Positions 1 to 62,192 of a stretch of DNA of 64,000 nucleotides are shown one piece after another. Each line of letters starts with the position of its first letter. The stretch's first letter is position 1. Position numbers and translations under genes: made by a program. Source of the stretch: an uncultured Fibrobacteraceae bacterium (GTDB lineage Bacteria; Krumholzibacteriota; Krumholzibacteriia; LZORAL124-64-63); assembly GCA_964461255.1 (NCBI GenBank), contig CAYWTR010000015.1, positions 6,983 through 70,982 on the forward strand. Reading direction: 5' to 3'. The notes under the pieces are model-generated. The model made no database searches, was not told where the DNA came from, and saw only the letters and a list, made by a program, of their open reading frames with translations.

Positions 1-76
1 TCATCCTCTCCATGCCCGCCCTCCGTGGTCTCACACCGCCCAGCGTGCCGACTTCCCAATGGCCGCCGCCCCGCCC

Positions 77-1519
77 TTAGATAACGGCATTGAAAACGTC
101 CTCCGCCAACCGTTCGCGCGGTGATTTGCCGCCAGGGATCACAAGCGCTTTCAGCAGAAGATCGTGCAAACCCATCACCCTGCAGGGAAGCTTGTAGAAC
201 TCAACCAGCTCTTTGAGTTGTTTCTTGCAGTTCGCGCAAGGCGCGATAACGATCTCGGCGCCAGTGCGCTGGATCTGCTCTGCCTTGACCTTGCCCCCGA
301 CCTGCATTCTGAAGTCATGGATTTCATCCACGGACACCAGGCCGCCGCCGCCGCCGCAGCAATAGTTGCGCTCGCCGCCTGGCTCCATATCAACGAAATC
401 GCGGACGAATGCGCGCAGGATCTCGCGCGGTTGCTCGACAATCCAGCCCGAGCGCGCAATGTTGCAGGGATCATGATACGTCACCCGCTGGGAGACAATC
501 GTGGGATCAAGTTGGATCTTGCCTCGCTGCAGGCAATCCAGCGTGTATTCCATGAAATTGATGACGGGATAGGCACGGCGCCCGCCGAATACCGGCACAA
601 ATTGGTGGGCGGCGCGCGAGGCATGACCGCACTCGCCGATTAGGACACCGCGTCCACGCAGACGTGCGACCTCGTCCAATAGTTGCTGAACGATACGCTC
701 AAGGTGCCAATCGCTATAGAATAGCCCATAGTTGATCCCATCATAGTTGCAGGTGCCGATGGTCCAACGTTCCCAGTCCCCCGCCGCATATAGCACGGCG
801 GCGTTGCCCATCAGGGTATCGGGCTCCATCAGGTAATCGCTCACGGCGCAGAAGAAGACATAATCGCGATCCTCGCGATCGACGGGGAAATCCAGCTCGA
901 CTCCAAGCTGCTCCGTCATTTCCTCCGCCAGGAAAGAAAGAGTGTTCAACATCGCCTTCTTGGGGATCTTAGACGTGTTGTGCGTCTCTCCCTCGAGCTG
1001 TTCTCGCACGCTGACCTGCAGGGCTTTGGGCACGATGCCGATGAGACTCAACACGTAACGGCCCAGCCGTGTCATGAGACCGTGGTCAACGCCCAGGGGG
1101 CATTCCAGTGTGCAGCGCCGGCAAGCCGTACAGCGATATAGCACGTCCGCCAGCTCATCCACCAGCTCCTCGGTCAGCTCGAAGCCGCGGCTGAACCGCG
1201 ATGCAAGCCAACCGCCAAGCGTGAAATAGCGTCGATAGATCTCGAGGAGTATGTTTGAGCGATAGCAGGGAATGTCGCGCGGTGACCCGGTTGTCATGTA
1301 GATCGGGCACGTCACGGCGCAGCGGTTACATTTGGCGCTGGTGTTACTATAGGAATCAAGCAAGGCACGGTAATCGGTGAATTCCAGCACGACGGCAAAC
1401 GCTTCCAGAAACCGCTCAACGCGCGGTCTTAGGGGTGCATTCTCCACGTAGTATGGAAACGAGCGACCGATATCAGGAGCGGCGTGCTGAACGGTCGATT
1501 CCATCGTCTTTGCTTCCAT
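77..1519 (-). CDS. Fe-S oxidoreductase, HdrD/GlpC-like (two 4Fe-4S ferredoxin motifs plus CCG-type Cys-rich domains)
   Basis: Two CxxCxxCxxxCP motifs (CNRCAVTCP, CTACRRCTLECP). C-terminal Cys-rich CCG-like segments (HDPCN, NYCCGGGGG, PCANC). Start re-assigned to MEAKTMESTV at 1519, since the longer ORF to 1612 only adds a non-conserved leader. Confidence 0.65.
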   Translation of the reverse strand: MEAKTMESTVQHAAPDIGRSFPYYVENAPLRPRVERFLEAFAVVLEFTDYRALLDSYSNTSAKCNRCAVTCPIYMTTGSPRDIPCYRSNILLEIYRRYFTLGGWLASRFSRGFELTEELVDELADVLYRCTACRRCTLECPLGVDHGLMTRLGRYVLSLIGIVPKALQVSVREQLEGETHNTSKIPKKAMLNTLSFLAEEMTEQLGVELDFPVDREDRDYVFFCAVSDYLMEPDTLMGNAAVLYAAGDWERWTIGTCNYDGINYGLFYSDWHLERIVQQLLDEVARLRGRGVLIGECGHASRAAHQFVPVFGGRRAYPVINFMEYTLDCLQRGKIQLDPTIVSQRVTYHDPCNIARSGWIVEQPREILRAFVRDFVDMEPGGERNYCCGGGGGLVSVDEIHDFRMQVGGKVKAEQIQRTGAEIVIAPCANCKKQLKELVEFYKLPCRVMGLHDLLLKALVIPGGKSPRERLAEDVFNAVI

Positions 1520-1793
1520 GATGTCGACACACCTCCGGGGCCGTTTGCAAGACAAGACGACAATGGCAAGGAGCGTACCCGCCGCCAAGGCAGGGCGAGC
1601 GCGCAGCCCCAACGGCCTCGAAACTGGGTGGCGTAACCGCGGGCTGAATGGCGCATGAGTCGCCAGGTTCGCCGTCTAATCACGGTCGCGGCAAGGAAGA
1701 GGCGCTGTGCCTGGAGAGCCCCGGCGCGGCGCAGGAGATCTTCCGTCAGCAGTCGGGCGCAACGGTTTGAGCGTTGCGTCGGTTGCATCGTCG

Positions 1794-1823
1794 TGTCGCA
1801 TGCGACATCGACTGCGACATCGC
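1794..1823. promoter_or_regulatory. Candidate enhancer/UAS: 14-bp perfect palindrome TGTCGCATGCGACA followed by direct repeats TGCGACATCG(A/C)
   Basis: Perfect palindrome read directly, about 200 bp upstream of the sigma-54 promoter at 2006. A TGT-N8-ACA architecture resembles bEBP upstream activator sites. Confidence 0.3.
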
Positions 1824-2003
1824 GCGACGTATCCGGCTTCTCCTACACCAGCCCTTTGGCGCAGCCGCGGCGGCCCGCCGGCGGCGTCAGGTGATGAAAC
1901 ACGCCCGCGATATCTCCGGCAACAGAGGAATAGTCGGCATCTGCCAGCGGTCTCGGATAAGCATCGAGCGGTGAAGGGGTGGCGGCAGCACGGAGAGGAT
2001 GCC

Positions 2004-2022
2004 CTTGGCACGCCCATTGCGA
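2004..2022 (+). promoter_or_regulatory. sigma-54 (RpoN) promoter, TGGCACG-N4-TTGC
   Basis: cccTTGGCACGcccaTTGCg is an exact match to the -24/-12 consensus with correct GG/GC spacing. It lies about 25 nt upstream of the 2047 start codon, which has a GAGGTG RBS, and a sigma-54 activator gene sits 1.7 kb downstream. Confidence 0.6.
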
Positions 2023-2046
2023 TGAAACGGGCAAAGCGAGGTGCAC

Positions 2047-3081
2047 ATGCGCTACGCGATCCCAGTTCTATCCCGCCGAGTATCGCCTCGCTGCACGATC
2101 GCCGAGACCGTCCTGGTTGTCGAGGCGCGCGCGGGCGAGGTTATCAACAGCCAGCGGCTGAATGCTCCGGGACGCACTTGGATGGAGCTGTTTTCGACCC
2201 TCGCAACCGAGCGCATCGATGTTCTCGTGTGCGGCGGCATATCGCGGGAGGCGAGACAGGCTCTCCGCGCGCGAAACATCACGGTGGTCGACAACGTGGC
2301 GGCCACAATCGACAGCGTGATAGGCGCGATTGCGACGGGAGAACTAAGGCCCGGCTACGGCTTTGATAGCGATGGGCGCGACGGCGGGGATCCGGACATC
2401 GTGCCTGCCGGCGTGTCCTTCCATCGCGATGCTGGCGCTCGTGATCGGGGCGCCGCTGCCGGATCCCGACCTCCGGAGTCGGGAGCGCCGGACTGCCTTG
2501 CCTGCGCCGACAGGGTGTGCCTGCTCGGAGATCCATGCCCATCGTTCGCACGCCGTGGTGGTGCCGGTCCCCATGGCAACACCCGCCGCATCCTGGAAGC
2601 GACCCACGATATCGCCTGCGAGGATGAGCGCGTCTTGTGCCGGCTGTCCGAGCTGATCTACTTCGGCCTGGAAATGGGATACCGCCGCATCGGCGTCGCT
2701 TTTTGCTGGGACCTTCTGGAGGCGACCCGGATTCTGGTTGGGGTCATGCGGCGCTTCTTCGATGTCGTGCCCATTGGCTGCAAGATCAACCGCCCCGCCG
2801 CCCCGGCCCCGGGCCGCAACTTTATGGGAACCGAATCGCCGCTGCCGTCGCGCTACATCCCCTGCAATCCTCGCGGGCAAGCGCTGGCGCTGGCGCGGGC
2901 TGGCAGCGAACTCAATGTCGCCGTCGGTCTGTGCATGGGAGCCGACTGTTTGTTCGCGCAGGCCAGTCGCGCGCCCGTAAGCACGCTGTTCGTCAAAGAT
3001 CGCTCCTTTGCAAAACAACCCCATCGGGGCATTGTACAGCGATCACTACTTAAAGGAAGCGCTGCGAGCGTCCGCGGCTGA
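2047..3081 (+). CDS. NifX/NifB-like Fe-Mo cluster-binding domain (DUF134) fused to a C-terminal Cys-rich domain (DUF1847-like)
   Basis: N-terminus (IAETVLVVEARAGEVIN...LVCGGISREARQALRARNITVV) matches the PF02579-type fold. The C-terminal half carries DCLACADRVCLLGDPC and further conserved Cys residues. The gene is driven by the sigma-54 promoter. ATG at 2047 is preferred over GTG at 2041. Confidence 0.55.
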   Translation: MRYAIPVLSRRVSPRCTIAETVLVVEARAGEVINSQRLNAPGRTWMELFSTLATERIDVLVCGGISREARQALRARNITVVDNVAATIDSVIGAIATGELRPGYGFDSDGRDGGDPDIVPAGVSFHRDAGARDRGAAAGSRPPESGAPDCLACADRVCLLGDPCPSFARRGGAGPHGNTRRILEATHDIACEDERVLCRLSELIYFGLEMGYRRIGVAFCWDLLEATRILVGVMRRFFDVVPIGCKINRPAAPAPGRNFMGTESPLPSRYIPCNPRGQALALARAGSELNVAVGLCMGADCLFAQASRAPVSTLFVKDRSFAKQPHRGIVQRSLLKGSAASVRG

Positions 3082-3150
3082 GCGCGCCTGGCGTCTGACC
3101 AACTGCTCAACGCTCGTGTCCGCGGCATCTTCGCCAAAGGAGGCATTGCC

Positions 3151-3682
3151 ATGACGGTCACTCGCATTAGCGCCGTGGGTTTTTGTGCACACTATTCACC
3201 CGCAGGCGATTTGGCCTTTGACTTCGCGTTGCGCCTTTCGCGCGATCATGGCTTTCAACTCAACGTGTTTCACTTTCTCGTTGATCCCTACGCGCGCACT
3301 GAGGCTCTGACCCGTTTCTACAGCGGCCGCGAATTGGCCGATCTGGCCTATGAGCGCGAACGAGAACTGCGCCTTTACTACGACGAACGCGCGGGAGACT
3401 ATCTTGAGATCGGCTTTCGGCTGTGCTACGACGATAGCTGGCGCGAGCTGCATCGCTGCCTGGCCGGTCCACGAGTTCCAGCTGCTGGTGCTCGCGAAAC
3501 CAGCTGCCGACAGTGTGTTTTGCCGCAAACCGATTGAGATCTTCGCCGATAGCTTCGTCTGCCCGGTGGTGCTGGTCGGGCCCGACGACGCCGGCCATTA
3601 CCGACTCAACAGCAGCGCCTCCTTGCTAGCCGATCAGTTGGATCTGCCGGCGGAACGGTGGCAGCGTATCGAAACCGCCTAG
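3151..3682 (+). pseudogene. Universal stress protein (UspA family) with an apparent +1 frameshift near 3465-3480
   Basis: Frame 1 (3151-3537) gives a Usp N-terminus (ISAVGFCAHYSPAGDLAFDFALRLSRDHGFQLNVFHF). Frame 2 (to 3682) gives the Usp C-terminus (HEFQLLVLAKPAADSVFCRKPIEIFADSFVCPVVLVGP). The junction lies at HRCLAGP / VHEFQ. This is either a genuine frameshift or an indel error. Confidence 0.45.
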
Positions 3683-3813
3683 CGCGCGGGAGGCAGCGAT
3701 TGGGCGCGACCATTTCAGAGCCCCTGAGGACAGATTGTCACGCTGCCGCTCGCGCTGGTTGCGCTATCCGCTCCCCAGCCTATTTTGGGGACAGGAAAGA
3801 GCGGATTGATGCC

Positions 3814-5118
3814 ATGCCCGAGAAGTTGAGTCAGATTATCTTCAACAGCATCAGCGATGGTGTGTTCACGGTCGACCGTGACTGCATCATCACCTCGTTC
3901 AACCACGCCGCGGAACGCATCACCGGCTTCAGCGCTGCCGAGGCTGTCGGCAAGCACTGCTTCGATGTGTTCCGCACCGACATCTGCCACAAGCAGTGTG
4001 CACTGAAGGACACGCTGCACACGGCCGCTCCCGTCGAGAACACGCGCGTCACGATTATAACCCGCGATGAACGCGAGGTGCCGATCCGTGTTACAACTAC
4101 GCTGCTGCGAGACGACAACGGCCAGGTTATCGGCGCGGTGGAATTCTTCCGAGACATTTCCGAACTCGAGCACCTGCGGGAAAGCCTCGATCGCAAGCGC
4201 GGTCTGGAAGACATTGTCAGTGTCAACCGGCAGATGCAGCAGCTTATCGCACTGCTGCCTGACATCGCCGAATCCGAATGCAACGTGCTGCTGGAAGGAC
4301 CCAGTGGCTGCGGCAAGGAGCTGGTGGCGCAGACCATCCACAATTTGAGCCCCAGACGCTATGGCCCCTACATAAGGATCAACTGCGCCGCACTGCCGGC
4401 ACCCCTGCTCGAATCCGAGCTTTTCGGCTACGAAAAGGGGGCCTTTACGGACGCCAAGCGCAACAAACCGGGCCAGTTCAGCCTTGCCAATGGCGGCACG
4501 CTGCTGCTCGACGAGATCGCCGAGATGGCTGTCTCTCTGCAGGTCAAGCTTCTGCGCGTTCTGAACAACGGCGAGTATCAGCCCTTGGGCTCGGCGAAAT
4601 CCATGCGCACCGATGCGCGCATCGTCGCGGCCACCAACGCCGATCTCCAGCAGGAGGTCAGCGCCGGCCGGTTCCGCGAGGATCTCTACTATCGCATCAA
4701 CGTCGTCAACCTCAAGATCCCGCCTCTTGACCAACGCCCCGAGGACATTCCGCTGCTGGTCAACCACTTTCTCGGCCTCTTCCGCGCGCCCCGCGCCAAG
4801 AACATCACTCAGGTATCAAGTGAGGCGATGGCGGCCCTGCGGCGGTACCGCTATCCAGGTAATATTCGGGAACTGGAAAACGCCATCGAGCATGCCTTCG
4901 TTATGTGCCATGGCGAGCGCATCGAGCTGGAGCATTTGCCGGCGCATCTTGTTTCCCTGGCCGAGACGGTGAACGGCATCACGGCTCATCCGCAATGCGA
5001 GCGCGATGTCATCCTGGAAGCGCTGCAAAGGCATAAAGGCAATCGCGCCGCCACAGCCGCGGAGCTGGGCATCCACCGCAGCACTCTTTGGCGCAAGATC
5101 AGGTCGCTGAAGGTCTGA
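3814..5118 (+). CDS. sigma-54-dependent transcriptional activator (PAS sensor, AAA+ sigma-54 interaction domain, Fis-type HTH)
   Basis: Walker A GPSGCGKE, sigma-54 activator box ESELFGYEKGAFTDA (GAFTDA variant of GAFTGA), GGTLLLDEI, C-terminal HTH AAELGIHRSTLWRKI. The N-terminal PAS carries a C-x8-C-x3-C cysteine motif. An RBS (aggaaagag) precedes the ATG at 3814. Confidence 0.85.
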   Translation: MPEKLSQIIFNSISDGVFTVDRDCIITSFNHAAERITGFSAAEAVGKHCFDVFRTDICHKQCALKDTLHTAAPVENTRVTIITRDEREVPIRVTTTLLRDDNGQVIGAVEFFRDISELEHLRESLDRKRGLEDIVSVNRQMQQLIALLPDIAESECNVLLEGPSGCGKELVAQTIHNLSPRRYGPYIRINCAALPAPLLESELFGYEKGAFTDAKRNKPGQFSLANGGTLLLDEIAEMAVSLQVKLLRVLNNGEYQPLGSAKSMRTDARIVAATNADLQQEVSAGRFREDLYYRINVVNLKIPPLDQRPEDIPLLVNHFLGLFRAPRAKNITQVSSEAMAALRRYRYPGNIRELENAIEHAFVMCHGERIELEHLPAHLVSLAETVNGITAHPQCERDVILEALQRHKGNRAATAAELGIHRSTLWRKIRSLKV

Positions 5119-5149
5119 GTGTTTCACGAGCCGTTGGCTGCCCCACGGA

Positions 5150-6523
5150 CTACTCCGCCAAGAGCGCGGCCACTTCCATGCCGCCACTCGCATCGCAGCC
5201 CAGATCGAGCGTCGGCGCGTCCGCCCCGCGCAGTGCGCGGCCGTCGGCGTGGTGCGTCACGCGCACCAGCGGGCGCTCGATGTCTGCGCCGGCGGCGATC
5301 ACCAGGGCCTGCTCGCCGGTAGACATGCGGACGCTGCTGCCCGGGGGATACAGGCCCAGGGCGCGCACGAAGGCCGCCAGCAGATCGGGCGCGAAGGCGC
5401 CCTCGTCGGCGAGCATGATCTCGTACGCGCGGCGCGGAGCCAGCGCGCGCTTGTAGGGCCGGACGGCGGTGAGCGCCTCGTACACATCGCAGATGTGGAG
5501 CAGCGCCGTCAAGCGGCCGGGCGCGGCCCAGGTCGGACGGGCGGGATACCCGCCGCCGTCGTGCCGCCAGTGATGGCCCAGCGCGGCGGCGACGGCGGGC
5601 ATCCCGGCGGCGCGGTTCTGGAGCAAGAGGCGCGCGCCCAGCGCGGCGTGCTCCTCGATCGCGCGCCGCTGCTCGGCATTCAGCCCGTCCGGTTTGTACA
5701 GGATCTCCTCCGGGATGCACGCCTTGCCGACGTCGTGCAGCAGGCCGGCCTCGCCCAGATGGTGAAGCTGCGGCGGCGGCAGCCCCCAGCGATGGCCGAC
5801 CAGCACGGCGATCGTCGCCACGCGCACGGAGTGGCCGATCAGGTAGCTGTCGTGGTCGGGATAACGGACGAGCCGCATCAGGTCGAGACAGCCGCCGTCC
5901 TCGACCCGAGACAGCTTCTCGCTCAGCGACCTCACCGCCTCAACGTCCAGCTGGTCGCCGGCGGCGGCCTGTCCGTGGACGGCTTCGACGGTGTGGAACA
6001 ACGACTGGTACAGCTGGATCACGGCCTCCAGATGGCGGGCGCTGTCTTCGTCCTCCCGCGACGCCGCGCCGGAGGCGGCGCTCGGGCAGATGGAGTCGGC
6101 CTCAGCGCAAACCACCGCCAGCTCGATGAGGCGTACGCCGCGGGCCCGCAGCAGGCGGCGCGCTTCCTCTAGGTCGCTGGCCGGCTCGGCGAGCTCGGCC
6201 GACAGTGAGTACAGCTCGGACAGTTCCCGCGGCTCGGCGCCGTGGTGGAAGAGGAAACCGCCGCAACGCAGCTGTTCGGCGAGGGCCACGACCTTGCCGC
6301 CGGCGATCGTCGAACCGATCAGATAGTTCCCATCGTGAACCAGCTTACCGTCGACCACCCCCAGCAGGAAAGACTCCTTGCCCGCCTCGCGCAGCACGCC
6401 GTCCAGCTGGGCGGCGAAGCGTTCGCACAGCGCCGCGACCTTGGGATGATCGCGGAAGTACATCTTGCGCTGGCCGAGGCCGCTGCTCAGCAGGATCACC
6501 AGCTGGTCGTAGCGCGCGTTCAT
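5150..6523 (-). CDS. HD-GYP domain protein (putative c-di-GMP phosphodiesterase) with N-terminal sensory region
   Basis: HD motif (LLHDVGK) and HHWRHDGGGYP signature. The start overlaps the upstream ORF stop (ATGA). Confidence 0.8.
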   Translation of the reverse strand: MNARYDQLVILLSSGLGQRKMYFRDHPKVAALCERFAAQLDGVLREAGKESFLLGVVDGKLVHDGNYLIGSTIAGGKVVALAEQLRCGGFLFHHGAEPRELSELYSLSAELAEPASDLEEARRLLRARGVRLIELAVVCAEADSICPSAASGAASREDEDSARHLEAVIQLYQSLFHTVEAVHGQAAAGDQLDVEAVRSLSEKLSRVEDGGCLDLMRLVRYPDHDSYLIGHSVRVATIAVLVGHRWGLPPPQLHHLGEAGLLHDVGKACIPEEILYKPDGLNAEQRRAIEEHAALGARLLLQNRAAGMPAVAAALGHHWRHDGGGYPARPTWAAPGRLTALLHICDVYEALTAVRPYKRALAPRRAYEIMLADEGAFAPDLLAAFVRALGLYPPGSSVRMSTGEQALVIAAGADIERPLVRVTHHADGRALRGADAPTLDLGCDASGGMEVAALLAE

Positions 6524-8547
6524 GACGCGTCACCTCGCTGTCCGGCGCCTCCCTCGAGGGCGGGCGACGGGGCGGGGTGTTGCAGCCGAAGCAGCGCCTC
6601 GCCCGCCGCCAGCCGGCAGCGCGCCGGCCAGGCCGGCCAGACCAGCAGCCGCCGCCCGCTCTGGATTGCGCGCAGCACGTGGACGGCGGCGCCCCCGCCC
6701 AGCAGGCCCAGCGCCGCAATCGCGTCGGCCGCAGCCGCCTCGCCCCGGCGCGACGGCGGCAGCATGCTCAACGCCTCCGACAGCAACCGACCCCACAGCG
6801 CGCGCGTTTCGGCGGAGGGAGCCGCGGCGCCGGCATCTCCCAACACGCGGGCCAGCAACGGACGGTGGCGCGGCTGGTAATCGCCCAACAAGGCCAGCGT
6901 GCGTCCGGGCAGCCAGACCGGCGGCCGCTGGCGCAGGCCTTCCCAGAGCGCGGCGCCGATCGCCAACCCCTGCGCGGACCACAGCAGGAGCGCGCAGAGA
7001 GGCGCCAGGCCGGGAGGCGGCGCGTGCAGCCAGCGCAGGGAGAGCTTGCCTTCCCGCAGCGACGCCAGTCCCTCCAGCCGCGGCAGGGCGCGGCGCATGG
7101 CGTCTTCGTCTAGGGACGCGGCCGCCTGGTGCAGCGCCTCGCGCACCGCCGGCTCTTCGTGTTCGAGGCCCGCGAGGATCTCGTTGACGATGTGCGGCCA
7201 CAGCGCGGCCAGCGCCTCGCCCGCCAGGCCGCGGGCCGCGTCGCGCAACAGGCTGCCGGGCGCAGACGGGCTTCCGGCGCGCAGGGCCCCGCACACGGCG
7301 TCCAGCAGGGGGTCCAGCAGAGCGAGCGGAACGCGCGCGGCCAGATCGCCCAACGCGGTCGCCAGCAGCGCGTGCTCGGCCGGTTGCAGCGGGGGGGCGA
7401 CGTTTTCCCGCAACCTGTTCAAGACCTCGGCCGACAGCGCGGGCGGCGGCGCGGCGGTCGCGATCTGCAGCAGAACGGCGAGGGTTTCGCGGCGGTCGGC
7501 CGGCGCGGGCGCGCCGCTGTCCCCTTCCGCCGCCTCGTCCAACCGCCGGTTCAGCTCATCCACGGTCCACTCGCAGGCTTCTGCTTCGCGCGTGTGCTTG
7601 ATCGGCGGCGCGGCATGCCGGCTTCCCCGCGCCTGCCTGGCCGCCTGGCGGAAGGCGTCGAGCATCAACGCGACCATGTCGCCGTCGCCAGGCTGAACCA
7701 GAGCCAGCTGCGCCTGCGCCAAGGCCCCCGCCAGATCGGCCGCGGTCGCCGTCGCCGGCACGGTCTGCAGGAGCGCGTGGCGGAGAGCCTGGGCGGCGAG
7801 CGCGAAGACGTCGTCGAACGAGCGGACGCCGGCGGCTTGTCCCCCTTGCTGCTGGGCGGACCCCTGCTCCATCTGCCCGGCCAGCTTCGCCGTCAGCGTC
7901 TCAAGCAGCTGCTCGCAGGCCGCCCGTGCGCCAGCGTCGAGATCGTCCCGCTCGAGCGCGCCCAACGCCGCGTCGGCCGCCGCCCTGATCCTTGCGCCGA
8001 GGAAGGCGACATCGCCCCCGGCCAGCGCCAGCTTGAATTCCCGCCGTGTGGTCCTGATCGCCGGGCCCAGGTCGTCGAGCTGGATACGGTGAAATCCCTG
8101 GACGGTGTCCGCCTCGAGCTTGTGGCGTTGCATCGTGGTCACGAACCGATGCAGATCCTCGGGTGTGACGCCGGCGTCGAACTCCAGGCGGGCGACGCCG
8201 AGGCGATCGAGCAACTCGTGCAGGCGCACCGCGCCGCGTTGCGATGAATCGAGCCGTTGTCCGCCGATGACCAGGAAGCCGCGGCCGACGTCGATCCCGA
8301 GCGTCGTTCCACCGTCCAGGGCCTGCTGCAGCTCGCGCGTGAACGCGGCGGCGACCTCGGCGACCAGCGTATGCCCGGCGGGATAGTAGGTGGCGATGGT
8401 GAACAGGCGGTCGAGTGCGCCGAGGAGTCCGGCATGCTGCCGTGGTGGGCTGCGGGGTGGAACCGTGGCAACGTTCATGACGGCGCCCTGGCCTTCGCGG
8501 AGCACGGATCGGGCTCGCGTCCGGCGATCTTGATCGATCGTTTGCAA
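6520..8547 (-). CDS. Hypothetical Ala/Leu-rich protein, translationally coupled to the HD-GYP gene
   Basis: Long ORF on the same strand whose stop overlaps the HD-GYP start. No recognisable motif. Start is uncertain: TTG at 8547 or ATG (MNVATV) at about 8478. Confidence 0.45.
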   Translation of the reverse strand: MQTIDQDRRTRARSVLREGQGAVMNVATVPPRSPPRQHAGLLGALDRLFTIATYYPAGHTLVAEVAAAFTRELQQALDGGTTLGIDVGRGFLVIGGQRLDSSQRGAVRLHELLDRLGVARLEFDAGVTPEDLHRFVTTMQRHKLEADTVQGFHRIQLDDLGPAIRTTRREFKLALAGGDVAFLGARIRAAADAALGALERDDLDAGARAACEQLLETLTAKLAGQMEQGSAQQQGGQAAGVRSFDDVFALAAQALRHALLQTVPATATAADLAGALAQAQLALVQPGDGDMVALMLDAFRQAARQARGSRHAAPPIKHTREAEACEWTVDELNRRLDEAAEGDSGAPAPADRRETLAVLLQIATAAPPPALSAEVLNRLRENVAPPLQPAEHALLATALGDLAARVPLALLDPLLDAVCGALRAGSPSAPGSLLRDAARGLAGEALAALWPHIVNEILAGLEHEEPAVREALHQAAASLDEDAMRRALPRLEGLASLREGKLSLRWLHAPPPGLAPLCALLLWSAQGLAIGAALWEGLRQRPPVWLPGRTLALLGDYQPRHRPLLARVLGDAGAAAPSAETRALWGRLLSEALSMLPPSRRGEAAAADAIAALGLLGGGAAVHVLRAIQSGRRLLVWPAWPARCRLAAGEALLRLQHPAPSPALEGGAGQRGDAS

Positions 8548-13263: not shown

Positions 13264-13602
13264 CTAGTGGTCGCAGACGTTCTCGCCCTGGCGCAGCGTG
13301 CCCGCCAGGTAATCGGCCACAAGCCGCTCGGGCGCTTCGGCCGGGGCGCCCACCATGACCTCGATGCCCTGCGCCGCGAAGAGCTCGCGCGCTCGCTGCC
13401 CCATCCCGCCGGCGATGATCACGCTCGCCCCCTGCTGCGCCAGCCAGGGCGGCAACAGACCAGGCTGATGCGGCGGGGCGGGAATGTCCTCGCGCGCGAG
13501 CACGCGCTGCGCGGCGGGATCGACATCGAGCAGGGCGAAGCTGGCGCAGTGGCCGAAATGCAAGGCCAGCTTGCCGTCGGCGAGCGGGATGGCGATGCGC
13601 AT
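13264..13602 (-). CDS. NifX/NifB-like Fe-Mo cluster-binding family protein (DUF134)
   Basis: MRIAIPLADGKLALHFGHCASFALLD ... VIIAGGMGQRARELFAAQGIEVMVG. RBS caaggagaacggacagATG. Confidence 0.75.
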   Translation of the reverse strand: MRIAIPLADGKLALHFGHCASFALLDVDPAAQRVLAREDIPAPPHQPGLLPPWLAQQGASVIIAGGMGQRARELFAAQGIEVMVGAPAEAPERLVADYLAGTLRQGENVCDH

Positions 13603-13659
13603 CTGTCCGTTCTCCTTGATTGATGTGATCCTGCGGCCGCCGCGGCGGCCGGACGCGGG

Positions 13660-14559
13660 TCACGCCGCCGCCGCGCCGTCCACCAGGGACAACACGCGAC
13701 GCCAGACCCGGCGAATGTCCTCCGCGGAGGGGGTCTCGATCTCGACGACGGCGCGCGCCGCCAGTTGCGCGCGGGTCACACCCGCGTCGTAACGGATTCG
13801 CCCGACCGGCACCGCGCCCGCCGCCAGCGCCCGCGCCTCGATGCGCTCACTCAAGGCGGGCGAAAGATCCCACTTGTTGACGCAGACCGCCGCGGGCAGC
13901 CCGAAATGGCGCGCCAGCGACAGCACGCGCGCCAGGTCGTGATCGCCGGCAACCGTCGGCTCGGTCACGACCACCACCAGCGAGGCGCCCGTGACCGAGG
14001 CGATGACCGGGCAGCCGATTCCCGGCGGCCCGTCCACGAGCACGAGCCCGCGCTGCTGCGCCTCCGCCAACCGCCGCGCCTCCCGCCGCACAGTCGACAC
14101 CAGTTTGCCCGAGTTCTCGGCGGCGATCCCAAGGCGCGCGTGCACCATGGGACCGCTGCGCGTGTCGGAGACCATCCATTCCCCGCAAAGGCGCTCGGGG
14201 AAATCGATGGCCTGCGCCGGGCAGAGCCGCACGCAGAGACCACAGCCCTCGCAGGCGATGGGATCGACGGCGAAGATGGGCGCGCCCTGCTCGCCGGCCG
14301 CGACGCGCATGGCGTCGAATCGGCAGTGCGCCAGGCAGTCGCCACAGCCGGTGCAATCAGCCGGTCGGATGATCGCCTCGCGGCCGCTGTGGAAAGGCCG
14401 GCGCGCGCGCAGGTGCGGCTCCAGCACCAGATGCAGGTCGGCCGCGTCGACGTCGCAGTCGGCGACGACCGCATCCCCGCTGAGAATGGCGAACGAAGCG
14501 GTCAGGCTGGTCTTGCCCGTGCCGCCCTTGCCGCTGATGACCACGATCTCGCGCATCAC
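13660..14559 (-). CDS. MinD/ParA-superfamily P-loop ATPase with inserted 2x[4Fe-4S] ferredoxin domain (COG1149-type)
   Basis: Walker A GKGGTGKTS. Two Cys clusters, CTGCGDCLAHC and CEGCGLCVRLCP, inserted into the ATPase fold. Confidence 0.8.
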   Translation of the reverse strand: MMREIVVISGKGGTGKTSLTASFAILSGDAVVADCDVDAADLHLVLEPHLRARRPFHSGREAIIRPADCTGCGDCLAHCRFDAMRVAAGEQGAPIFAVDPIACEGCGLCVRLCPAQAIDFPERLCGEWMVSDTRSGPMVHARLGIAAENSGKLVSTVRREARRLAEAQQRGLVLVDGPPGIGCPVIASVTGASLVVVVTEPTVAGDHDLARVLSLARHFGLPAAVCVNKWDLSPALSERIEARALAAGAVPVGRIRYDAGVTRAQLAARAVVEIETPSAEDIRRVWRRVLSLVDGAAAA

Positions 14560-15395
14560 GCCTCCCGCGGCGTCATGACAAGCTCGCCCAGGCGCGCAAA
14601 CAGCGGCCGGTAGGCCGGCAGCGCGTCGATCAGCAACGCTCCCTCCGCGTACGCCTCGGCGATGCGCCGGTCATCGGGAATCTCGAGCAGGATCGGTATC
14701 CCCTGCTGCGCGCACCATTCCTGGACACGCCGGTCGCCGGCGCCGGCCCGGTTGATCACCACGCCGTGCGGCAGTTCCAGCTCGCGCGCCAGCGCCGCCG
14801 CCAGGGTCAGGTCGTGCAAGCCGAAGGGCGTCGGCTCGGTCACCAGCAGCAAGTAGTCCGCGCCGCGCACCGCCGCGATCACCGGGCACGATGTCCCCGG
14901 CGGCGCGTCGATCAACGCCGGCAGATCATCTCGCCCTCGCTGTCTCACAGCTCTGATCAGCGGCGGAGCCGCGGGCACCCCGACGTCGAGCCTTCCCTGG
15001 ATCAGCGTGATCGGTCCCGCCGTCAGGGTCTCCACGACACCGATGCGCCGGCCCGTTTCGCTGATGGCGCGTTGAGGACAGACCAGGGCGCAGCCGCCGC
15101 AGCCGTGGCAGAGCTCGGCGAAGACAAGCGGCTCCGTCCCGAACGAGACGATGGCGTGGTACTGGCAGAAGCGGCTGCACTCGCCGCAGCCGTCGCAGCG
15201 AGCCGCATCGACCACCGGGACGGGCAGCGTCACCTCGACGCTGTCGCGGCATGTTCCCGCCAGGAACAGGTGCGCGTTGGGCGCCTCGACATCGCAATCC
15301 AGCAGCTGCACCGGTTCTCCCAGAGCCTTGGCCAGGTTCACCGCGACCGTGGTCTTGCCGGTGCCGCCCTTGCCCGAAGCCACGGCGACGATCAT
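14556..15395 (-). CDS. MinD/ParA-superfamily P-loop ATPase with inserted 2x[4Fe-4S] ferredoxin domain (second copy)
   Basis: Walker A GKGGTGKTT. Cys clusters CDGCGECSRFC and CHGCGGCALVCP. Start at MIVAVASGKGG (15395) overlaps the upstream stop (ATGA). The stop overlaps the downstream paralog start. Confidence 0.8.
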   Translation of the reverse strand: MIVAVASGKGGTGKTTVAVNLAKALGEPVQLLDCDVEAPNAHLFLAGTCRDSVEVTLPVPVVDAARCDGCGECSRFCQYHAIVSFGTEPLVFAELCHGCGGCALVCPQRAISETGRRIGVVETLTAGPITLIQGRLDVGVPAAPPLIRAVRQRGRDDLPALIDAPPGTSCPVIAAVRGADYLLLVTEPTPFGLHDLTLAAALARELELPHGVVINRAGAGDRRVQEWCAQQGIPILLEIPDDRRIAEAYAEGALLIDALPAYRPLFARLGELVMTPREA

Positions 15396-15754
15396 GCCCA
15401 GTGGCCTTCCACGTCCGCGTCGCTCGCCGGCGCCAGCTCCCCGGCGCGGAAGCGCTCCACGGCCGCCGCCACGGTCGGCGCTTCCGTGTTGTGGATGGAG
15501 ATGCCAGCGGCCTGCAGCACCCGAAACGCCTTCGGCCCGCAATGCCCCGTCACCAGCGCCCTTGCCCCGCTGCGCGCGATGGTCTCGGCCGCCTGCACCC
15601 CCGCGCCTGAGGCGGCCGCCAGGTTCTGCGCGTTGTCGATCACCTGGAATTCATCGGCGTCCAGATCGTAGACGATGAAGCATGCCGCCCGGCCGAAACG
15701 GGGATCCAGCGGCGCGTCCAGCGCCCCGGCCGTCGCTGTCAGCGCGATCTTCAC
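15392..15754 (-). CDS. NifX/NifB-like Fe-Mo cluster-binding family protein (DUF134)
   Basis: VKIALTATAGALDAPLDPRFGRAACFIVYD ... LVTGHCGPKAFRVLQAAGISI ... ERFRAGEL. GTG start preceded by GGAAGGAG with 6-nt spacing. Confidence 0.75.
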   Translation of the reverse strand: MKIALTATAGALDAPLDPRFGRAACFIVYDLDADEFQVIDNAQNLAAASGAGVQAAETIARSGARALVTGHCGPKAFRVLQAAGISIHNTEAPTVAAAVERFRAGELAPASDADVEGHWA

Positions 15755-15851
15755 TCTGCGCTCCTTCCGTAGCGCCGGCGCCGGGCGGCGGTCTCGCCGC
15801 ATCGCCCCCGACGCGGACCGCCCGCCGCGGCGCCGGCCTGCCCAGACGTAC

Positions 15852-16217
15852 TCACGCGCCCGTGTTGTCCGACGCGAGCTCCTGCAGCCGTTTCTCGACC
15901 GCCGCCAGTTGCGCTTTCAGGTCTCCGGCCAGCTGGCGCAGACCCTGCAGCTCCCGGCCGGCATCAAGCGGCGCCCACGGCGCGGGCGCGAAGCCCGCCC
16001 CCGTGGGCAGCCAGCCCGGCTGCCCGGTCGCCCAGGCCCGGTTGCGCCAACCGCGCCCCGCGCCGAAGCCCGGACCGTCGCCCCAGGCGCCGCGCGCGAA
16101 GCGGCGGCCCGGCCAGCCGCTCGCGTACCCGGGCCAGGCGCCGCCGCCGCAGTACCCGGCGCCGCGCCCTGTCATCGGTCCCTGACCCCAGGGTCCCGTC
16201 CTGTCTCCTCCCGGCAT
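15852..16217 (-). CDS. DUF5320-like small protein: Gly/Trp/Pro-rich N-terminal repeats plus C-terminal coiled coil
   Basis: MPGGDRTGPWGQGPMTGRGAGYCGGGAWPGY ... then LQGLRQLAGDLKAQLAAVEKRLQELA. AAGGAGG RBS, 7 nt before the ATG at 16217. Confidence 0.55.
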   Translation of the reverse strand: MPGGDRTGPWGQGPMTGRGAGYCGGGAWPGYASGWPGRRFARGAWGDGPGFGAGRGWRNRAWATGQPGWLPTGAGFAPAPWAPLDAGRELQGLRQLAGDLKAQLAAVEKRLQELASDNTGA

Positions 16218-16262
16218 GGTCATGCCTCCTTTCACATCGCGCCTCTCCACCGCCGCGCAGCA

Positions 16263-16913
16263 TCAGCCATCCCGGCGCATGGCGATCCCGCACTGCGGGC
16301 AGCGCTGCTGCGCGCAGGGGACGCCCCGCGCATGCGGCTCCCGGCGCCCGCACTGCGGGCAGACACAGCTGCCGCCGGGACCGCCCGCCTGCGGCCCTCC
16401 CATGCGACCGCGGCCGCCGCCTCCCGCGCCGCCGCCACGTCCTCCTCCGGCACCGCCGCCTCTTGCGCCGCCGCCACGTCCTCCGCCGGCACCGCCGCCG
16501 CCACCGCCGCCGCCGCCGCCACCACGTCCCATGCCTCTCATCGCCCTGTTCCTTCCCAGGCCGCGCCCGCGTCCGGCGCCGCAGCATCCCGGCATCGCGA
16601 AGCGCTCGCCTTCCAGGCGCGCTTCCAGCCACGCCCGCACGATCTCCTCCATCTCCCCGGCCACGAACGGAATCACCTTGATGCCGTAAGACTCGATCAG
16701 CTCCTGCAGGGGCCGCGAGATCGCGCCGCACACCAGCACCTGCGCGCCGCGCTCGGCCAGCCTGAGGGCCCTGGCGGCCGGCGGTTCGAGCGGCAGCATC
16801 TCGTCCGCCGTGCCGACGATGCGCCCCCCCTCCGCTTCCACCACCCGCATCCGTCGCGCGACGTCGAAGACCGGCGCCAACCTGTCGTTCCAGATCGCGA
16901 AAGCCGCCTTCAT
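16263..16913 (-). CDS. DUF134-like domain fused to a Gly/Arg-rich low-complexity region and a C-terminal CxxC...CxxC zinc ribbon
   Basis: N-terminal about 105 aa NifX-like (AFAIWNDRLAPVFDVARRMRVVEAEG...QVLVCGAISRPLQELIESYGIKVIP). Then GGGRGGGA x4. Then CVCPQCGRREPHARGVPCAQQRCPQCG. Confidence 0.65.
   Translation of the reverse strand: MKAAFAIWNDRLAPVFDVARRMRVVEAEGGRIVGTADEMLPLEPPAARALRLAERGAQVLVCGAISRPLQELIESYGIKVIPFVAGEMEEIVRAWLEARLEGERFAMPGCCGAGRGRGLGRNRAMRGMGRGGGGGGGGGGGAGGGRGGGARGGGAGGGRGGGAGGGGRGRMGGPQAGGPGGSCVCPQCGRREPHARGVPCAQQRCPQCGIAMRRDG
16373..16586. repeat. Imperfect about 39-bp tandem repeats (GC-only codons) encoding the GGGRGGGA low-complexity tract
   Basis: ccgccgccacgtcctcc(t/g)ccggcaccgccgcc... 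is repeated 2.5 times within the coding sequence. Confidence 0.6.
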
Positions 16914-16960
16914 GCGGGCGCTCCTCTCTGCGGGCTGGGGGAAAGATCCAGCATGGATCG

Positions 16961-16999
16961 CGCCGCCGGCACCGCGGTTCGTTCATTGACACAACGTGT
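16961..16999. promoter_or_regulatory. AT-rich island with consensus TTGACA and TATAAT hexamers and an ACAC-N3-GTGT inverted repeat. It lies upstream of the minus-strand NifX-like/ATPase cluster, just downstream of the sigma-54 activator gene
   Basis: ttgacacaacgtgtttatttataattgattatgatgaca sits in an otherwise about 70% GC context. The hexamer spacing is only 13 nt, so this may be a DNA-bending or binding site rather than a promoter. Confidence 0.3.
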
Positions 17000-17098
17000 T
17001 TATTTATAATTGATTATGATGACAGCCGGCGCAGGCCGGCCGGATTTACAGTCGCGTTATTGCTACGATATGTGTTCCAAAGGGTCGCGGATATGAGA

Positions 17099-18484
<1,386 letters not shown>

Positions 18485-18510
18485 GGCGCGGCCGTCGCGG
18501 CCGCCTCCTC

Positions 18511-19506: not shown

Positions 19507-19520
19507 GCCGGCGGCTCCGT

Positions 19521-62082: not shown

Positions 62083-62192
62083 GGCCGACCTCCCTTTGCT
62101 CCCACCCGCGAGGGGTGACGTGCGCCGCGCCCGGGACGGCGGTTCGCCAATGGCGCGCGACTTGCGCCGTCCGCTCCGCGCTCCTAGCCGGT

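What the first reader, a model, noticed from the sequence alone, without database searches (positions are those of the whole stretch)
77..5118. Second redox/metallocluster module: HdrD-like CCG protein divergent from a sigma-54-driven DUF134-DUF1847 fusion, Usp and PAS sigma-54 activator
The arrangement mirrors the 13-19 kb cluster: a NifX-like domain and a PAS sigma-54 activator paralog. Here it carries an HdrD/GlpC-type Fe-S/CCG oxidoreductase and a Cys-rich DUF1847-like domain. Two paralogous regulatory circuits controlling related metallocluster genes suggest a regulon.
Basis: partly seen in the sequence, partly recalled or inferred. Interest (0 to 1): 0.6.

Follow-up and report, generated by a model that had tools for sequence, protein, structure and literature searches.

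The report
Redox-switched sigma-54 module, Hmc-like complex
The region is one end of a seven-gene module, conserved in at least 137 mostly uncultured bacterial species, in which an iron-sulfur-type redox-sensing activator appears to switch on two back-to-back sigma-54 operons; this genome's copy looks imported and carries two frameshifts.

Summary
The genes, the sigma-54 promoter (2006-2020) and the palindrome are real. Several labels need correcting.

- **Fusion gene.** It is NifX/orange-protein fold (PF02579) plus DUF1847, not DUF134.
- **"Usp".** It is recognisable only at fold level.
  - The HdrD-like gene has its own conserved sigma-54 promoter (1565-1580, minus strand).
  - That gene is the first of a four-gene Hmc/Tmc-like membrane-complex operon that runs off the window's left edge.
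  - The palindrome is part of a conserved array of GTYGC half-sites (1759-1828), midway between the two promoters.

**Conservation.** In 80 species genomes from at least 8 phyla, gene order and orientation are almost invariant. The CCG gene was present in 76 of 76 testable loci, the Usp-like gene in 79 of 79, and the activator in 73 of 75.

**Activator.** All 71 module activators carry the Cys triad and GAFTDA motif of Desulfovibrio OrpR, a [4Fe-4S] redox sensor.

**Best reading.** An OrpR-type activator drives both operons from a shared enhancer under reducing conditions.

**This copy.** Its composition is foreign (GC3 0.59-0.77 against 0.85-0.93 in the flanks). It has single-base insertions in both the fusion gene and the Usp-like gene.

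I found no literature on the module. I rate it a new variant of a known kind.

The parts
1..13 (-). First 13 nt (ATG at 11-13) of the TmcC/HmcE-like membrane subunit gene. The rest of this gene, the HmcB-like Fe-S subunit gene and the NrfD/HmcC-like + six-heme cytochrome c gene lie off the window's left edge.
   Evidence: The window is identical to Logan contig L001 at offset 3954. Gene calls in L001/L088. NCBIfam: TmcC 2e-32, HmcE 1e-29, HmcB 7e-63, HmcC 2e-69.
77..1519 (-). DsrK/HmcF/TmcB-like cytoplasmic Fe-S/CCG subunit (480 aa), first gene of the left operon.
   Evidence: Pfam CCG 3.5e-13, Fer4_8 1.5e-8. NCBIfam DsrK 279 bits (cut-off 400), HmcF 224 (750), TmcB 195 (735). 64-80% identical in 76 of 76 orthologous loci.
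1565..1580 (-). Sigma-54 -24/-12 promoter of the CCG (Hmc/Tmc-like) operon: GGGTACGCTCCTTGCC, 46 nt before the ATG.
   Evidence: Scores 9 of 12 with GG and GC intact. A site of this quality lies 15-65 nt upstream in 61 of 78 loci, against 0.5 in shuffles and 0 in a control interval.
1759..1828 (.).
   Evidence: Exact GTTGCAAC in 66 of 78 loci, at a median of 242 nt from the CCG start and 253 nt from the fusion start. Palindrome families occur in 30-32 of 78 loci, against <= 3 in shuffles. The pattern occurs once in the window.
2006..2021 (+). Sigma-54 -24/-12 promoter of the right operon: TGGCACGCCCATTGCG, 26 nt before ATG 2047.
   Evidence: Conserved position in 64 of 78 loci, against 0.5 in shuffles.
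2047..3154 (+). NifX/orange-protein-fold (PF02579) + DUF1847 fusion gene. The ORF as it stands ends at 3081, because a 1-nt insertion near 3007-3014 shifts the frame. The ancestral frame continues (…NNPIGALYSDHYLKEALRAS…) to TGA 3152-3154, overlapping the next ATG.
3151..3682 (+). Divergent Usp-fold protein gene (176-181 aa in orthologs), split here by a 1-nt insertion near 3467-3470 into frame A (3151-3537) and frame B (to 3682).
   Evidence: Protein alignment, DNA alignment, tblastn in two pieces. Pfam Usp 1.2e-3 on the intact ortholog. AF2 pLDDT 85, and the top 40 PDB Foldseek hits are all Usp.
3814..5118 (+). OrpR-type enhancer-binding protein: PAS with C49-x-D51-x6-C58-x3-C62, sigma-54 AAA+ domain with GAFTDA, Fis-type HTH.
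   Evidence: Pfam. Alignment with orthologs (80-81%) and the window paralog (50%). Cys triad and GAFTDA in 71 of 71 module activators. OrpR C52/D-E54/C61/C65 in PMC8359166. GAFTDA for DVU2106 in PMC4641369.

Best explanation
Coordinates 77-5118 are the right-hand part of an ~8.7-kb, seven-gene module made of two divergent sigma-54-dependent operons that share one central enhancer.

The left operon encodes an Hmc/Tmc-like transmembrane electron-transfer complex. Only its first gene lies in the window. The four genes are:
- a DsrK/HmcF-like CCG subunit (in the window);
- a TmcC/HmcE-like membrane subunit;
- an HmcB-like four-cluster Fe-S subunit without a signal peptide;
- an HmcC/NrfD-like subunit fused to a six-heme cytochrome c.

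The right operon encodes three proteins:
- a NifX/orange-protein-fold + DUF1847 Cys-rich protein;
- a divergent Usp-fold protein;
- the module's own activator.

Proposed mechanism, step by step:
1. By analogy with D. vulgaris OrpR, the activator holds a redox-sensitive [4Fe-4S] cluster in its PAS domain. The cluster is inferred from the conserved Cys triad.
2. When the cell is reduced, the activator is active. It assembles on the array of about six GTYGC half-sites (inferred).
3. It uses ATP to open both sigma-54 promoters, which lie about 200 bp away on either side (inferred).
4. The membrane complex and its cytoplasmic partners are therefore made together, only under low-potential conditions.
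5. The NifX-DUF1847 and Usp-like proteins most likely act on or with the cytoplasmic CCG subunit, as a metallocluster carrier/maturation factor or as a thiol/cluster redox partner. This is the weakest step.

In this particular genome the whole module looks horizontally acquired. Its two accessory genes each carry a 1-nt insertion, so the right arm is probably decaying. The CCG gene, the activator, both promoters and most of the enhancer are intact.
For: Shown:
- Domain content of each gene.
- Near-invariant synteny and orientation in 80 GTDB species loci spanning Zixibacteria, Ignavibacteria/Kapabacteria, Gemmatimonadota, Acidobacteriota, Krumholzibacteriia, Planctomycetota and others: NrfD-cytochrome c 61/61, Fer4_11 64/64, 232-aa subunit 66/66, CCG 76/76, Usp-like 79/79, activator 73/75.
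- Sigma-54 boxes at fixed distance on both sides, in 64 and 61 of 78 loci against 0.5 by chance.
- A conserved half-site array centred between the two promoters.
- No sigma-70-like promoter in 1-5400.
- The OrpR Cys triad with D/E, plus GAFTDA, in 71 of 71 module activators, matching PMC8359166 and PMC4641369.
- OrpR is experimentally known to drive two divergent sigma-54 operons and to be switched off by raised redox potential (PMC8359166).

Link of the fusion to the ORP world:
- The N-domain hits the MrpORP Di-Nase domain at 3.5e-8.
- Standalone DUF1847 lies inside orp-like clusters in 2 of 8 sampled contexts, and next to a ParA/Mrp ATPase in a third.
- An orp cluster lies adjacent to the module in 14 of 80 loci.

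For this copy:
- The two frameshifts are reproduced with 0 mismatches in four independent Logan assemblies; the same 344-aa and 128-aa truncated gene calls recur in contigs from several more runs.
- GC3 is 0.59-0.77 for all seven genes, against 0.85-0.93 for the flanks. In L005 and L006 the module matches its flanks.
Against: - Nothing here is experimental. Cluster binding by the PAS domain, DNA binding to the array and co-activation of both promoters are all inferred.
- The enhancer motif differs from the OrpR site GGGCGYRTTTTGCGCCC.
- No IHF consensus was found (2 of 78 loci, 4 expected by chance), although the D. vulgaris system needs IHF.
- About 10 of 78 loci (mostly Ignavibacteriaceae) show no box by my simple scoring.
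- Five of eight standalone DUF1847 contexts are not orp-like.
- The Fe-S subunit lacks a Tat signal in every ortholog, so the topology does not simply copy Hmc.
- The sequencing platform of the runs is unknown to me, so a systematic error at the two insertion sites is not strictly excluded.
Confidence: 0.65

Rival explanations
1. First reader's model. Only the fusion-Usp-activator operon is sigma-54 driven. The HdrD-like gene is an independent divergent neighbour. The two PAS activators in the window form one regulon acting on the 1794-1823 palindrome.
For: A perfect sigma-54 box lies before the fusion gene. The paralogous activators have similar HTH recognition helices.
Against: - A conserved sigma-54 box lies before the CCG gene in 61 of 78 loci.
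- The CCG gene heads a four-gene operon that is always present.
- The GTYGC/GTTGCAAC array occurs once in the window.
- Orp operons next to the second activator elsewhere use a different repeat.
Confidence: 0.1
2. The two operons are co-regulated only, with no physical coupling. NifX-DUF1847 and the Usp-like protein belong functionally to the ORP metallocluster system (Fe-S or Mo/Cu cluster handling). The Hmc/Tmc-like complex is simply another anaerobiosis-induced function sharing the enhancer.
For: DUF1847 and NifX-like proteins recur in orp-like clusters that lack any Hmc-like genes. The orp cluster is often adjacent to the module. No homology or fold link between DUF1847 and CCG proteins was found.
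Against: The NifX-DUF1847 fusion was never seen without the Hmc/Tmc-like operon (CCG 76/76), while an orp cluster is adjacent in only 14 of 80 loci. Such strict linkage across at least 8 phyla usually reflects a shared function.
Confidence: 0.3
3. The PAS domain senses something other than redox through an Fe-S cluster, for example a small ligand or a thiol/disulfide switch. The Cys triad would then have a different role, so the module is not a low-potential switch.
For: No spectroscopy exists for this subfamily. The activator is only about 50% identical to its own orp-linked paralog. I could not compare it directly with the D. vulgaris OrpR sequence.
Against: The C-x-[D/E]-x6-C-x3-C spacing is identical to OrpR C52/D-E54/C61/C65 in 71 of 71 module activators and in 17 of 17 orp-adjacent paralogs. 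In OrpR these three Cys are required for sensing (PMC8359166).
Confidence: 0.15
4. The two frameshifts are sequencing or assembly artefacts, or are tolerated. The module would then be fully functional in this organism.
For: Some long-read MAGs among the orthologs (L012, L028, L049) show many fragmented hits typical of indel errors. The first insertion lies next to short T and A runs.
Against: - The same sequence, with 0 mismatches over 5-9 kb, was assembled independently from four SRA runs of two projects, and the same 344-aa and 128-aa truncated products are called in contigs from several more runs.
- The second insertion (GGTCC) is not in a homopolymer.
- The insertions remove residues that are invariant in 114 homologs and cut the Usp-fold protein in two.
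Confidence: 0.15

Closest known systems
orp divergon and OrpR (DVU2106) of Desulfovibrio vulgaris Hildenborough
   Same: - A one-component PAS-AAA+-HTH sigma-54 activator with the same Cys triad/acidic residue spacing and the GAFTDA variant.
- Two divergent sigma-54 operons under one cognate activator.
- NifX/orange-protein-fold proteins among the products.
- Restricted to anaerobe-type genomes.
- A true orp-like cluster with its own OrpR-like paralog sits 8 kb away in the window.
   Different: - The target genes are an Hmc/Tmc-like membrane complex, a NifX-DUF1847 fusion and a Usp-fold protein, not Orp3-9.
- The activator gene is the last gene of one operon rather than sitting between the two operons.
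- There is one shared central enhancer of GTYGC half-sites instead of two GGGCGYRTTTTGCGCCC sites.
- No IHF consensus was found.
- The carriers are FCB-group, Gemmatimonadota, Acidobacteriota and similar lineages, not Desulfovibrio.
Hmc, Tmc and DsrMKJOP transmembrane redox complexes of sulfate reducers and sulfur oxidisers
   Same: The subunit types match: a cytoplasmic CCG/Fe-S protein (DsrK/HmcF/TmcB-like), a small membrane subunit (TmcC/HmcE-like), an Fe-S subunit of the Fer4_11 type (HmcB/DsrO-like), an NrfD-type membrane subunit (HmcC/DsrP-like) and multihaem cytochrome c.
   Different: - Every subunit scores well below the NCBIfam equivalog cut-offs.
- The cytochrome has six CxxCH motifs and is fused to the NrfD subunit, where HmcA has 16 haems and DsrJ has 3.
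- No HmcD is present.
- The Fe-S subunit has no Tat signal.
- Gene order is F-E-B-C/A.
- There is sigma-54/OrpR-type control and an obligatory divergent NifX-DUF1847/Usp operon.
- No dsrAB or dsrC was seen in the flanks.
NifX/NafY/orange-protein family (PF02579) and MrpORP
   Different: - Here the domain is fused through a variable linker to DUF1847, which has nine invariant Cys.
- The CxHFGHCE/CDH motifs described for MrpORP are not evident. The conserved motifs here are PRC-T-A and VCGGI.
Universal stress protein family (PF00582)
   Same: The predicted fold of the intact ortholog matches Usp structures (Foldseek E 2e-5, TM 0.5-0.6). NCBI names the ortholog 'universal stress protein'.
   Different: - The sequence score is below the Pfam threshold.
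- I could not see the G-x2-G-x9-G(S/T) nucleotide motif.
- The family instead has invariant Cys/His (C12, H14, H41, C92, H101, C103), hinting at a metal or cluster site.

Membership tests
OrpR-type sigma-54 enhancer-binding protein | PAS + sigma-54 AAA+ + Fis-type HTH one-component architecture | tested here: met
   Pfam PAS_9 2e-17, Sigma54_activat 1e-65, HTH_8 4e-14.
OrpR-type sigma-54 enhancer-binding protein | Three conserved PAS cysteines (C52, C61, C65 in OrpR) with D/E two residues after the first | tested here: met
   C49-x-D51-x6-C58-x3-C62 in the window. The pattern is present in 71 of 71 module activators. Reference: PMC8359166.
OrpR-type sigma-54 enhancer-binding protein | GAFTDA variant of the sigma-54 contact loop | tested here: met
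   GAFTDA in 71 of 71. DVU2106 is listed as GAFTDA in PMC4641369.
OrpR-type sigma-54 enhancer-binding protein | Binds a redox-sensitive [4Fe-4S] cluster and is inactivated by raised redox potential | not testable with these tools
   Needs anaerobic purification, UV-visible/EPR spectroscopy and in vivo reporters.
OrpR-type sigma-54 enhancer-binding protein | Recognises the 17-bp site GGGCGYRTTTTGCGCCC and controls the orp operons | tested here: not met
   The enhancer here is a GTYGC/GTTGCAAC array, and the adjacent genes are not orp3-9. This is therefore a paralogous subfamily with a different regulon, not OrpR itself.
Sigma-54 promoter | GG at -24 and GC at -12 with TGGCAC-N5-TTGC-like context, close upstream of the gene, conserved in orthologs | tested here: met
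   2006-2021(+) scores 11 of 12 and 1565-1580(-) scores 9 of 12. Conserved in 64 and 61 of 78 loci, against 0.5 by chance. Activity itself was not tested.
DsrK / HmcF / TmcB (NCBIfam equivalogs) | Score above the curated equivalog cut-off | tested here: not met
   DsrK 279 bits against a cut-off of 400; HmcF 224 against 750; TmcB 195 against 735.
HdrD/CCG-domain Fe-S oxidoreductases | Ferredoxin-type Cys motifs plus a CCG domain (C..CCG..CxxC) | tested here: met
   Pfam Fer4_8 and CCG, residues 351-441 covering the whole profile. HDPC…YCCGGGGG…APCANC is visible in the sequence.
Hmc complex | HmcA 16-haem cytochrome, Tat-exported HmcB, HmcC, HmcD, HmcE, HmcF | tested here: not met
   Six CxxCH motifs fused to the NrfD subunit. 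HmcB-like subunit without a signal peptide. No HmcD. All subunits below cut-off.
DUF1847 (PF08901) | Match above the Pfam gathering score | tested here: met
   89.5 bits against 25; residues 182-316 match profile positions 23-157 of 157. The last ~25 residues of the domain are out of frame in the window.
Nitro_FeMo-Co / NifX-NafY-ORP fold (PF02579) | Pfam match and fold | tested here: met
DUF134 (PF02001) | Pfam match | tested here: not met
No hit at E <= 0.01.
Universal stress protein (PF00582) | Pfam match above the gathering score | tested here: not met
   No hit for either window fragment. The intact ortholog scores 19.9 bits against 24.
Universal stress protein (PF00582) | Usp alpha/beta fold | tested here: met
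   AF2 model pLDDT 85. The top 40 Foldseek PDB hits are all Usp, best E 1.9e-5.

The most novel reading that the evidence does not exclude
The NifX-DUF1847 protein, with the Usp-fold protein, may be the dedicated cytoplasmic partner of a previously unrecognised Hmc/Tmc-like respiratory complex. It would act either as the carrier that delivers an unusual metallocluster to the CCG subunit, or as the redox substrate of that subunit, as DsrC is for DsrK. That would tie the long-enigmatic orange-protein (ORP) protein set to transmembrane electron transfer in many uncultured anaerobic lineages.
Probability: 0.3. Interest if true: 0.75.

Novelty: new variant of a known kind. Interest (0 to 1): 0.55.

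Why it matters
- **ORP biology.** The function of the ORP proteins, and the physiological partners of HmcF/TmcB-type CCG subunits, are both unresolved. A seven-gene module that strictly couples an ORP-type fusion protein, a Usp-fold protein and an OrpR-type redox switch to an Hmc/Tmc-like complex gives a concrete, testable link. The module occurs in at least 137 species of Zixibacteria, Ignavibacteria, Gemmatimonadota, Acidobacteriota, Krumholzibacteriia and others.
- **Reach of the OrpR paradigm.** It would extend the Fe-S-PAS activator model well beyond Desulfovibrio and beyond the orp genes.
- **First context for DUF1847.** I found no paper that mentions this family.
- **Practical annotation risk.** The subunits resemble DsrK/M/O/P but fall below the curated cut-offs. 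In metagenome-assembled genomes they could be miscalled as a Dsr complex and taken as evidence for sulfur respiration.
- **This genome.** The copy is probably a recently imported, partly inactivated module.

Tried and rejected
- **DUF134 label.** Rejected by Pfam.
- **Homology between DUF1847 and the CCG protein** (the idea that 'CCK.GG' resembles a CCG motif). hhalign probability was 12% over only 21 columns.
- **Usp by sequence against the PDB.** No hit. Only the fold search worked.
- **IHF site as in D. vulgaris.** 2 of 78 loci, against 4 expected.
- **Sigma-70 promoters and terminators in 1-5400.** No promoter-like site, and the terminator-like hits are inside genes.
- **Rfam on 1-6000.** Nothing.
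- **A second GTYGC array in the window**, to test cross-regulation of the orp cluster. None.
- **A clear sigma-54 box before the window's own orp operon.** Not found by eye or by score.
- **The fusion on plasmids.** Only standalone DUF1847 hits.
- **Literature.** No paper for DUF1847, PF08901, COG4887 or IPR014997. Nothing relevant for HmcF with these phyla or for TmcB with Usp.
- **Naming the window's organism.** Cluster look-ups returned no names, and the one genome-contig scan did not return this genome.
- **A scoring bug.** My first promoter scan used a wrong index for the -12 GC. It was discarded and redone.

Full report
**What is in the window**

ORF listing and domain scans give four genes.
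- 77..1519(-) encodes a 480-aa Fer4/CCG protein. Its best NCBIfam matches are DsrK (279 bits), HmcF (224) and TmcB (195), all far below the curated cut-offs.
- 2047..3081(+) encodes a two-domain protein. Residues 12-96 match Nitro_FeMo-Co (PF02579, 5e-7). They also hit the C-terminal 'Di-Nase' domain of MrpORP (3.5e-8). Residues 182-316 match DUF1847 (2e-25). There is no DUF134 hit.
- 3151..3682(+) is covered by two overlapping ORFs in different frames, neither with a Pfam hit.
- 3814..5118(+) encodes a PAS + sigma-54 AAA+ + HTH_8 activator.

The 527-bp spacer between 1519 and 2047 holds an exact TGGCAC-N5-TTGC at 2006-2020 and the palindrome TGTCGCATGCGACA at 1794-1807. It has two NifX-like genes, two MinD-type ATPases with ferredoxin inserts, DUF5320, a NifX-like/Gly-rich/zinc-ribbon protein and a second PAS activator.

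**The window shows only half of the unit**

The fusion protein occurs, residue for residue, on contigs assembled independently from several sequencing runs. Four of those contigs are identical to the window over 5-9 kb. They show that window position 1 lies 13 nt inside the next gene of the CCG operon. That operon continues with three genes:
- a 232-aa membrane protein (TmcC 2e-32, HmcE 1e-29);
- a 257-aa Fer4_11 protein (HmcB 7e-63);
- a 666-aa NrfD/HmcC-like protein (2e-69) whose C-terminus carries six CxxCH motifs.

The 'HdrD-like' gene is therefore the cytoplasmic subunit of an Hmc/Tmc-like transmembrane complex. No subunit reaches an equivalog cut-off. The cytochrome is fused to the NrfD subunit. 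The Fe-S subunit has no Tat signal in any ortholog.

**Conservation**

The fusion architecture has at least 278 full-length homologs at 40-56% identity. It is found in 137 GTDB species genomes. Against 50%-identity representatives, 193 proteins score below 1e-30, and shorter standalone DUF1847 proteins follow further down the list.

In the 80 loci fetched, the seven genes keep the same order and orientation wherever the contig is long enough:

| Gene | Present / testable loci |
|---|---|
| NrfD-cytochrome c | 61/61 |
| Fer4_11 | 64/64 |
| 232-aa subunit | 66/66 |
| CCG | 76/76 |
| Usp-like | 79/79 |
| Activator | 73/75 |

The carriers are uncultured Zixibacteria, Ignavibacteria/Kapabacteria, Gemmatimonadota, Acidobacteriota, Krumholzibacteriia, Planctomycetota and others. 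An orp cluster lies within the fetched flank in 14 of 80 loci, and a second OrpR-like activator in 18 of 80.

**Regulatory anatomy**

I scored the divergent spacers for -24/-12 elements, with GG and GC required. A strong box lies 15-65 nt before the fusion gene in 64 of 78 loci and before the CCG gene in 61 of 78. Shuffles give 0.5, and a control interval in the real sequences gives 0. In the window the second box is GGGTACGCTCCTTGCC at 1565-1580 on the minus strand.

Midway between the promoters there is a conserved array: GTYGC-N4-GTTGCAAC-N4-5-GTYGC-N3-GCRAC-N5-7-GCRAC. The exact central palindrome is present in 66 of 78 loci, at medians of 242 and 253 nt from the two start codons. The window's array spans 1759-1828. 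Three forward and three reverse half-sites would suit three dimers, that is one hexamer; this is inference.

No sigma-70-like promoter, Rfam element or IHF consensus was found.

**The activator**

It is 80-81% identical to its orthologs and 50% identical to the window's orp-cluster paralog. Its PAS domain carries C49-x-D51-x6-C58-x3-C62. This is the same spacing as C52, D/E54, C61 and C65 of D. vulgaris OrpR. In OrpR those cysteines are needed for redox sensing, and the PAS domain binds a [4Fe-4S] cluster (PMC8359166).

The triad is present in 71 of 71 module activators and in 17 of 17 adjacent paralogs. All module activators have GAFTDA, the variant listed for DVU2106 (PMC4641369). OrpR is also the precedent for one activator driving two divergent sigma-54 operons.

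The DNA motif and the target genes differ from OrpR's. I therefore treat this as a paralogous subfamily that works like OrpR, not as OrpR itself.

**The accessory proteins**

An AlphaFold model of an intact ortholog of the fusion (pLDDT 80) shows three parts:
- a disordered linker;
- a DUF1847 domain with only generic Rossmann-like matches.

DUF1847 has nine invariant cysteines, including C-x2-C-x4-C-x5-C. It has no solved relative and no detectable homology to the CCG protein.

Eight standalone DUF1847 genes were sampled for context:
- two sit inside orp-like clusters;
- one sits beside a ParA/Mrp ATPase and radical-SAM genes;
- two sit beside other Fe-S or radical enzymes;
- three sit in unrelated contexts.

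The middle protein forms a tight family of 176-181 aa (at least 460 hits). It has a weak Pfam Usp score on an intact member, and its predicted fold has Usp structures as its top 40 PDB matches. It has invariant Cys/His residues, and I could not see the usual nucleotide motif.

**This copy is damaged and looks foreign**

Against 20 and 114 homologs, the window's fusion protein loses the invariant C-terminal motif. That motif reappears intact in another frame (NNPIGALYSDHYLKEALRAS), which ends at a TGA overlapping the next ATG. The Usp-like gene switches frame after residue ~107.

DNA alignments show one extra base at each place, near 3007-3014 and near 3467-3470. Both insertions are in all four independent assemblies compared base by base, and contigs from further runs call the same truncated products.

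All seven module genes have GC3 of 0.59-0.77, while the flanking genes have 0.85-0.93. The break right after the activator's stop codon is sharp. In two other genomes the module matches its flanks. The simplest reading is horizontal acquisition followed by early decay of the two accessory genes. This is inference.

**Verdict**

- **Observation.** It is largely right, with wrong or weak labels for two domains and with important omissions.
- **Interpretation.** 'A second, paralogous metallocluster/redox circuit' holds. The unit, however, is a conserved OrpR-type sigma-54 module for an Hmc/Tmc-like complex plus ORP-related partners, with its own enhancer rather than one shared with the orp cluster.
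- **Literature and novelty.** I found no description of it in the searchable literature. I rate it a new variant of known kinds.
- **Interest.** It is of moderate interest for anaerobic bioenergetics and Fe-S biology, and lower for this particular frameshifted copy.

Noticed in passing
window 13264-19866 (minus strand): A complete orp-like cluster. It comprises an aldo/keto reductase (18511-19866), an OrpR-like activator with GAFTGA (17099 to about 18440), a NifX-like + long poly-Gly + zinc-ribbon protein (16275-16911), DUF5320 (15854-16217), NifX (15392-15802), two MinD-type ATPases with ferredoxin inserts (14556-15542 and 13660-14559) and NifX (13264-13602). I could not find a convincing sigma-54 box or enhancer for it.
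   Followed up: partly
window 1-5118 versus 5150 onward (also L088 2600-11305): A sharp compositional break. All module genes have GC3 of 0.59-0.77, while neighbouring genes have 0.85-0.93. This suggests the 8.7-kb module was acquired horizontally.
   Followed up: partly
window 63022-63036 (+) and 62151-62165 (+): A second exact TGGCAC-N5-TTGC and a one-mismatch copy. The exact one lies inside, and antisense to, a long minus-strand ORF (62357-63961). Possibly chance.
   Followed up: no
L053 5386-6477: A 363-aa protein made of two tandem DUF1847 domains, encoded directly downstream of the module's activator in a Gemmatimonadaceae MAG.
   Followed up: no
L099 528-8573; L097 1984-4872: Orp-like clusters that contain a standalone DUF1847 gene. 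L099 also has DUF134, CGGC, ARMT1-like and DUF5320 genes, two Orp3/4-like ATPases and an MrpORP-like gene. L097 has a MerR-NifX fusion, a NifX gene, a ParA/Mrp ATPase and a small ferredoxin.
   Followed up: partly
L010 12491-12704, L016, L017, L023, L043 (spacer after the second activator): Orp operons next to the second OrpR-like activator carry repeated ATTGCA-N4-6-TGCAAT palindromes and a GGCA(C/T)-N5-TTTG(A/T)-type -24/-12 box. This differs from the module's GTYGC array.
   Followed up: partly
L001 2496-3269 and orthologs: The HmcB-like Fe-S subunit starts directly at M-x-AILVDVT-C-x-GCE, with in-frame stops just upstream in low-GC genomes. It therefore has no Tat signal peptide, unlike HmcB, DsrO or HybA. 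Its side of the membrane is unclear.
   Followed up: partly
L012, L028, L049: In some long-read MAGs the module genes appear as several frame-shifted tblastn fragments. These are probably sequencing indels, and are a caution for gene calls in those assemblies.
   Followed up: no
window 5150-6523 (-) and 6520-8547 (-): An HD/HD_5-domain protein (457 aa) and a 661-675-aa protein without Pfam hits lie directly after the module. They have native composition and were not examined further.
   Followed up: no
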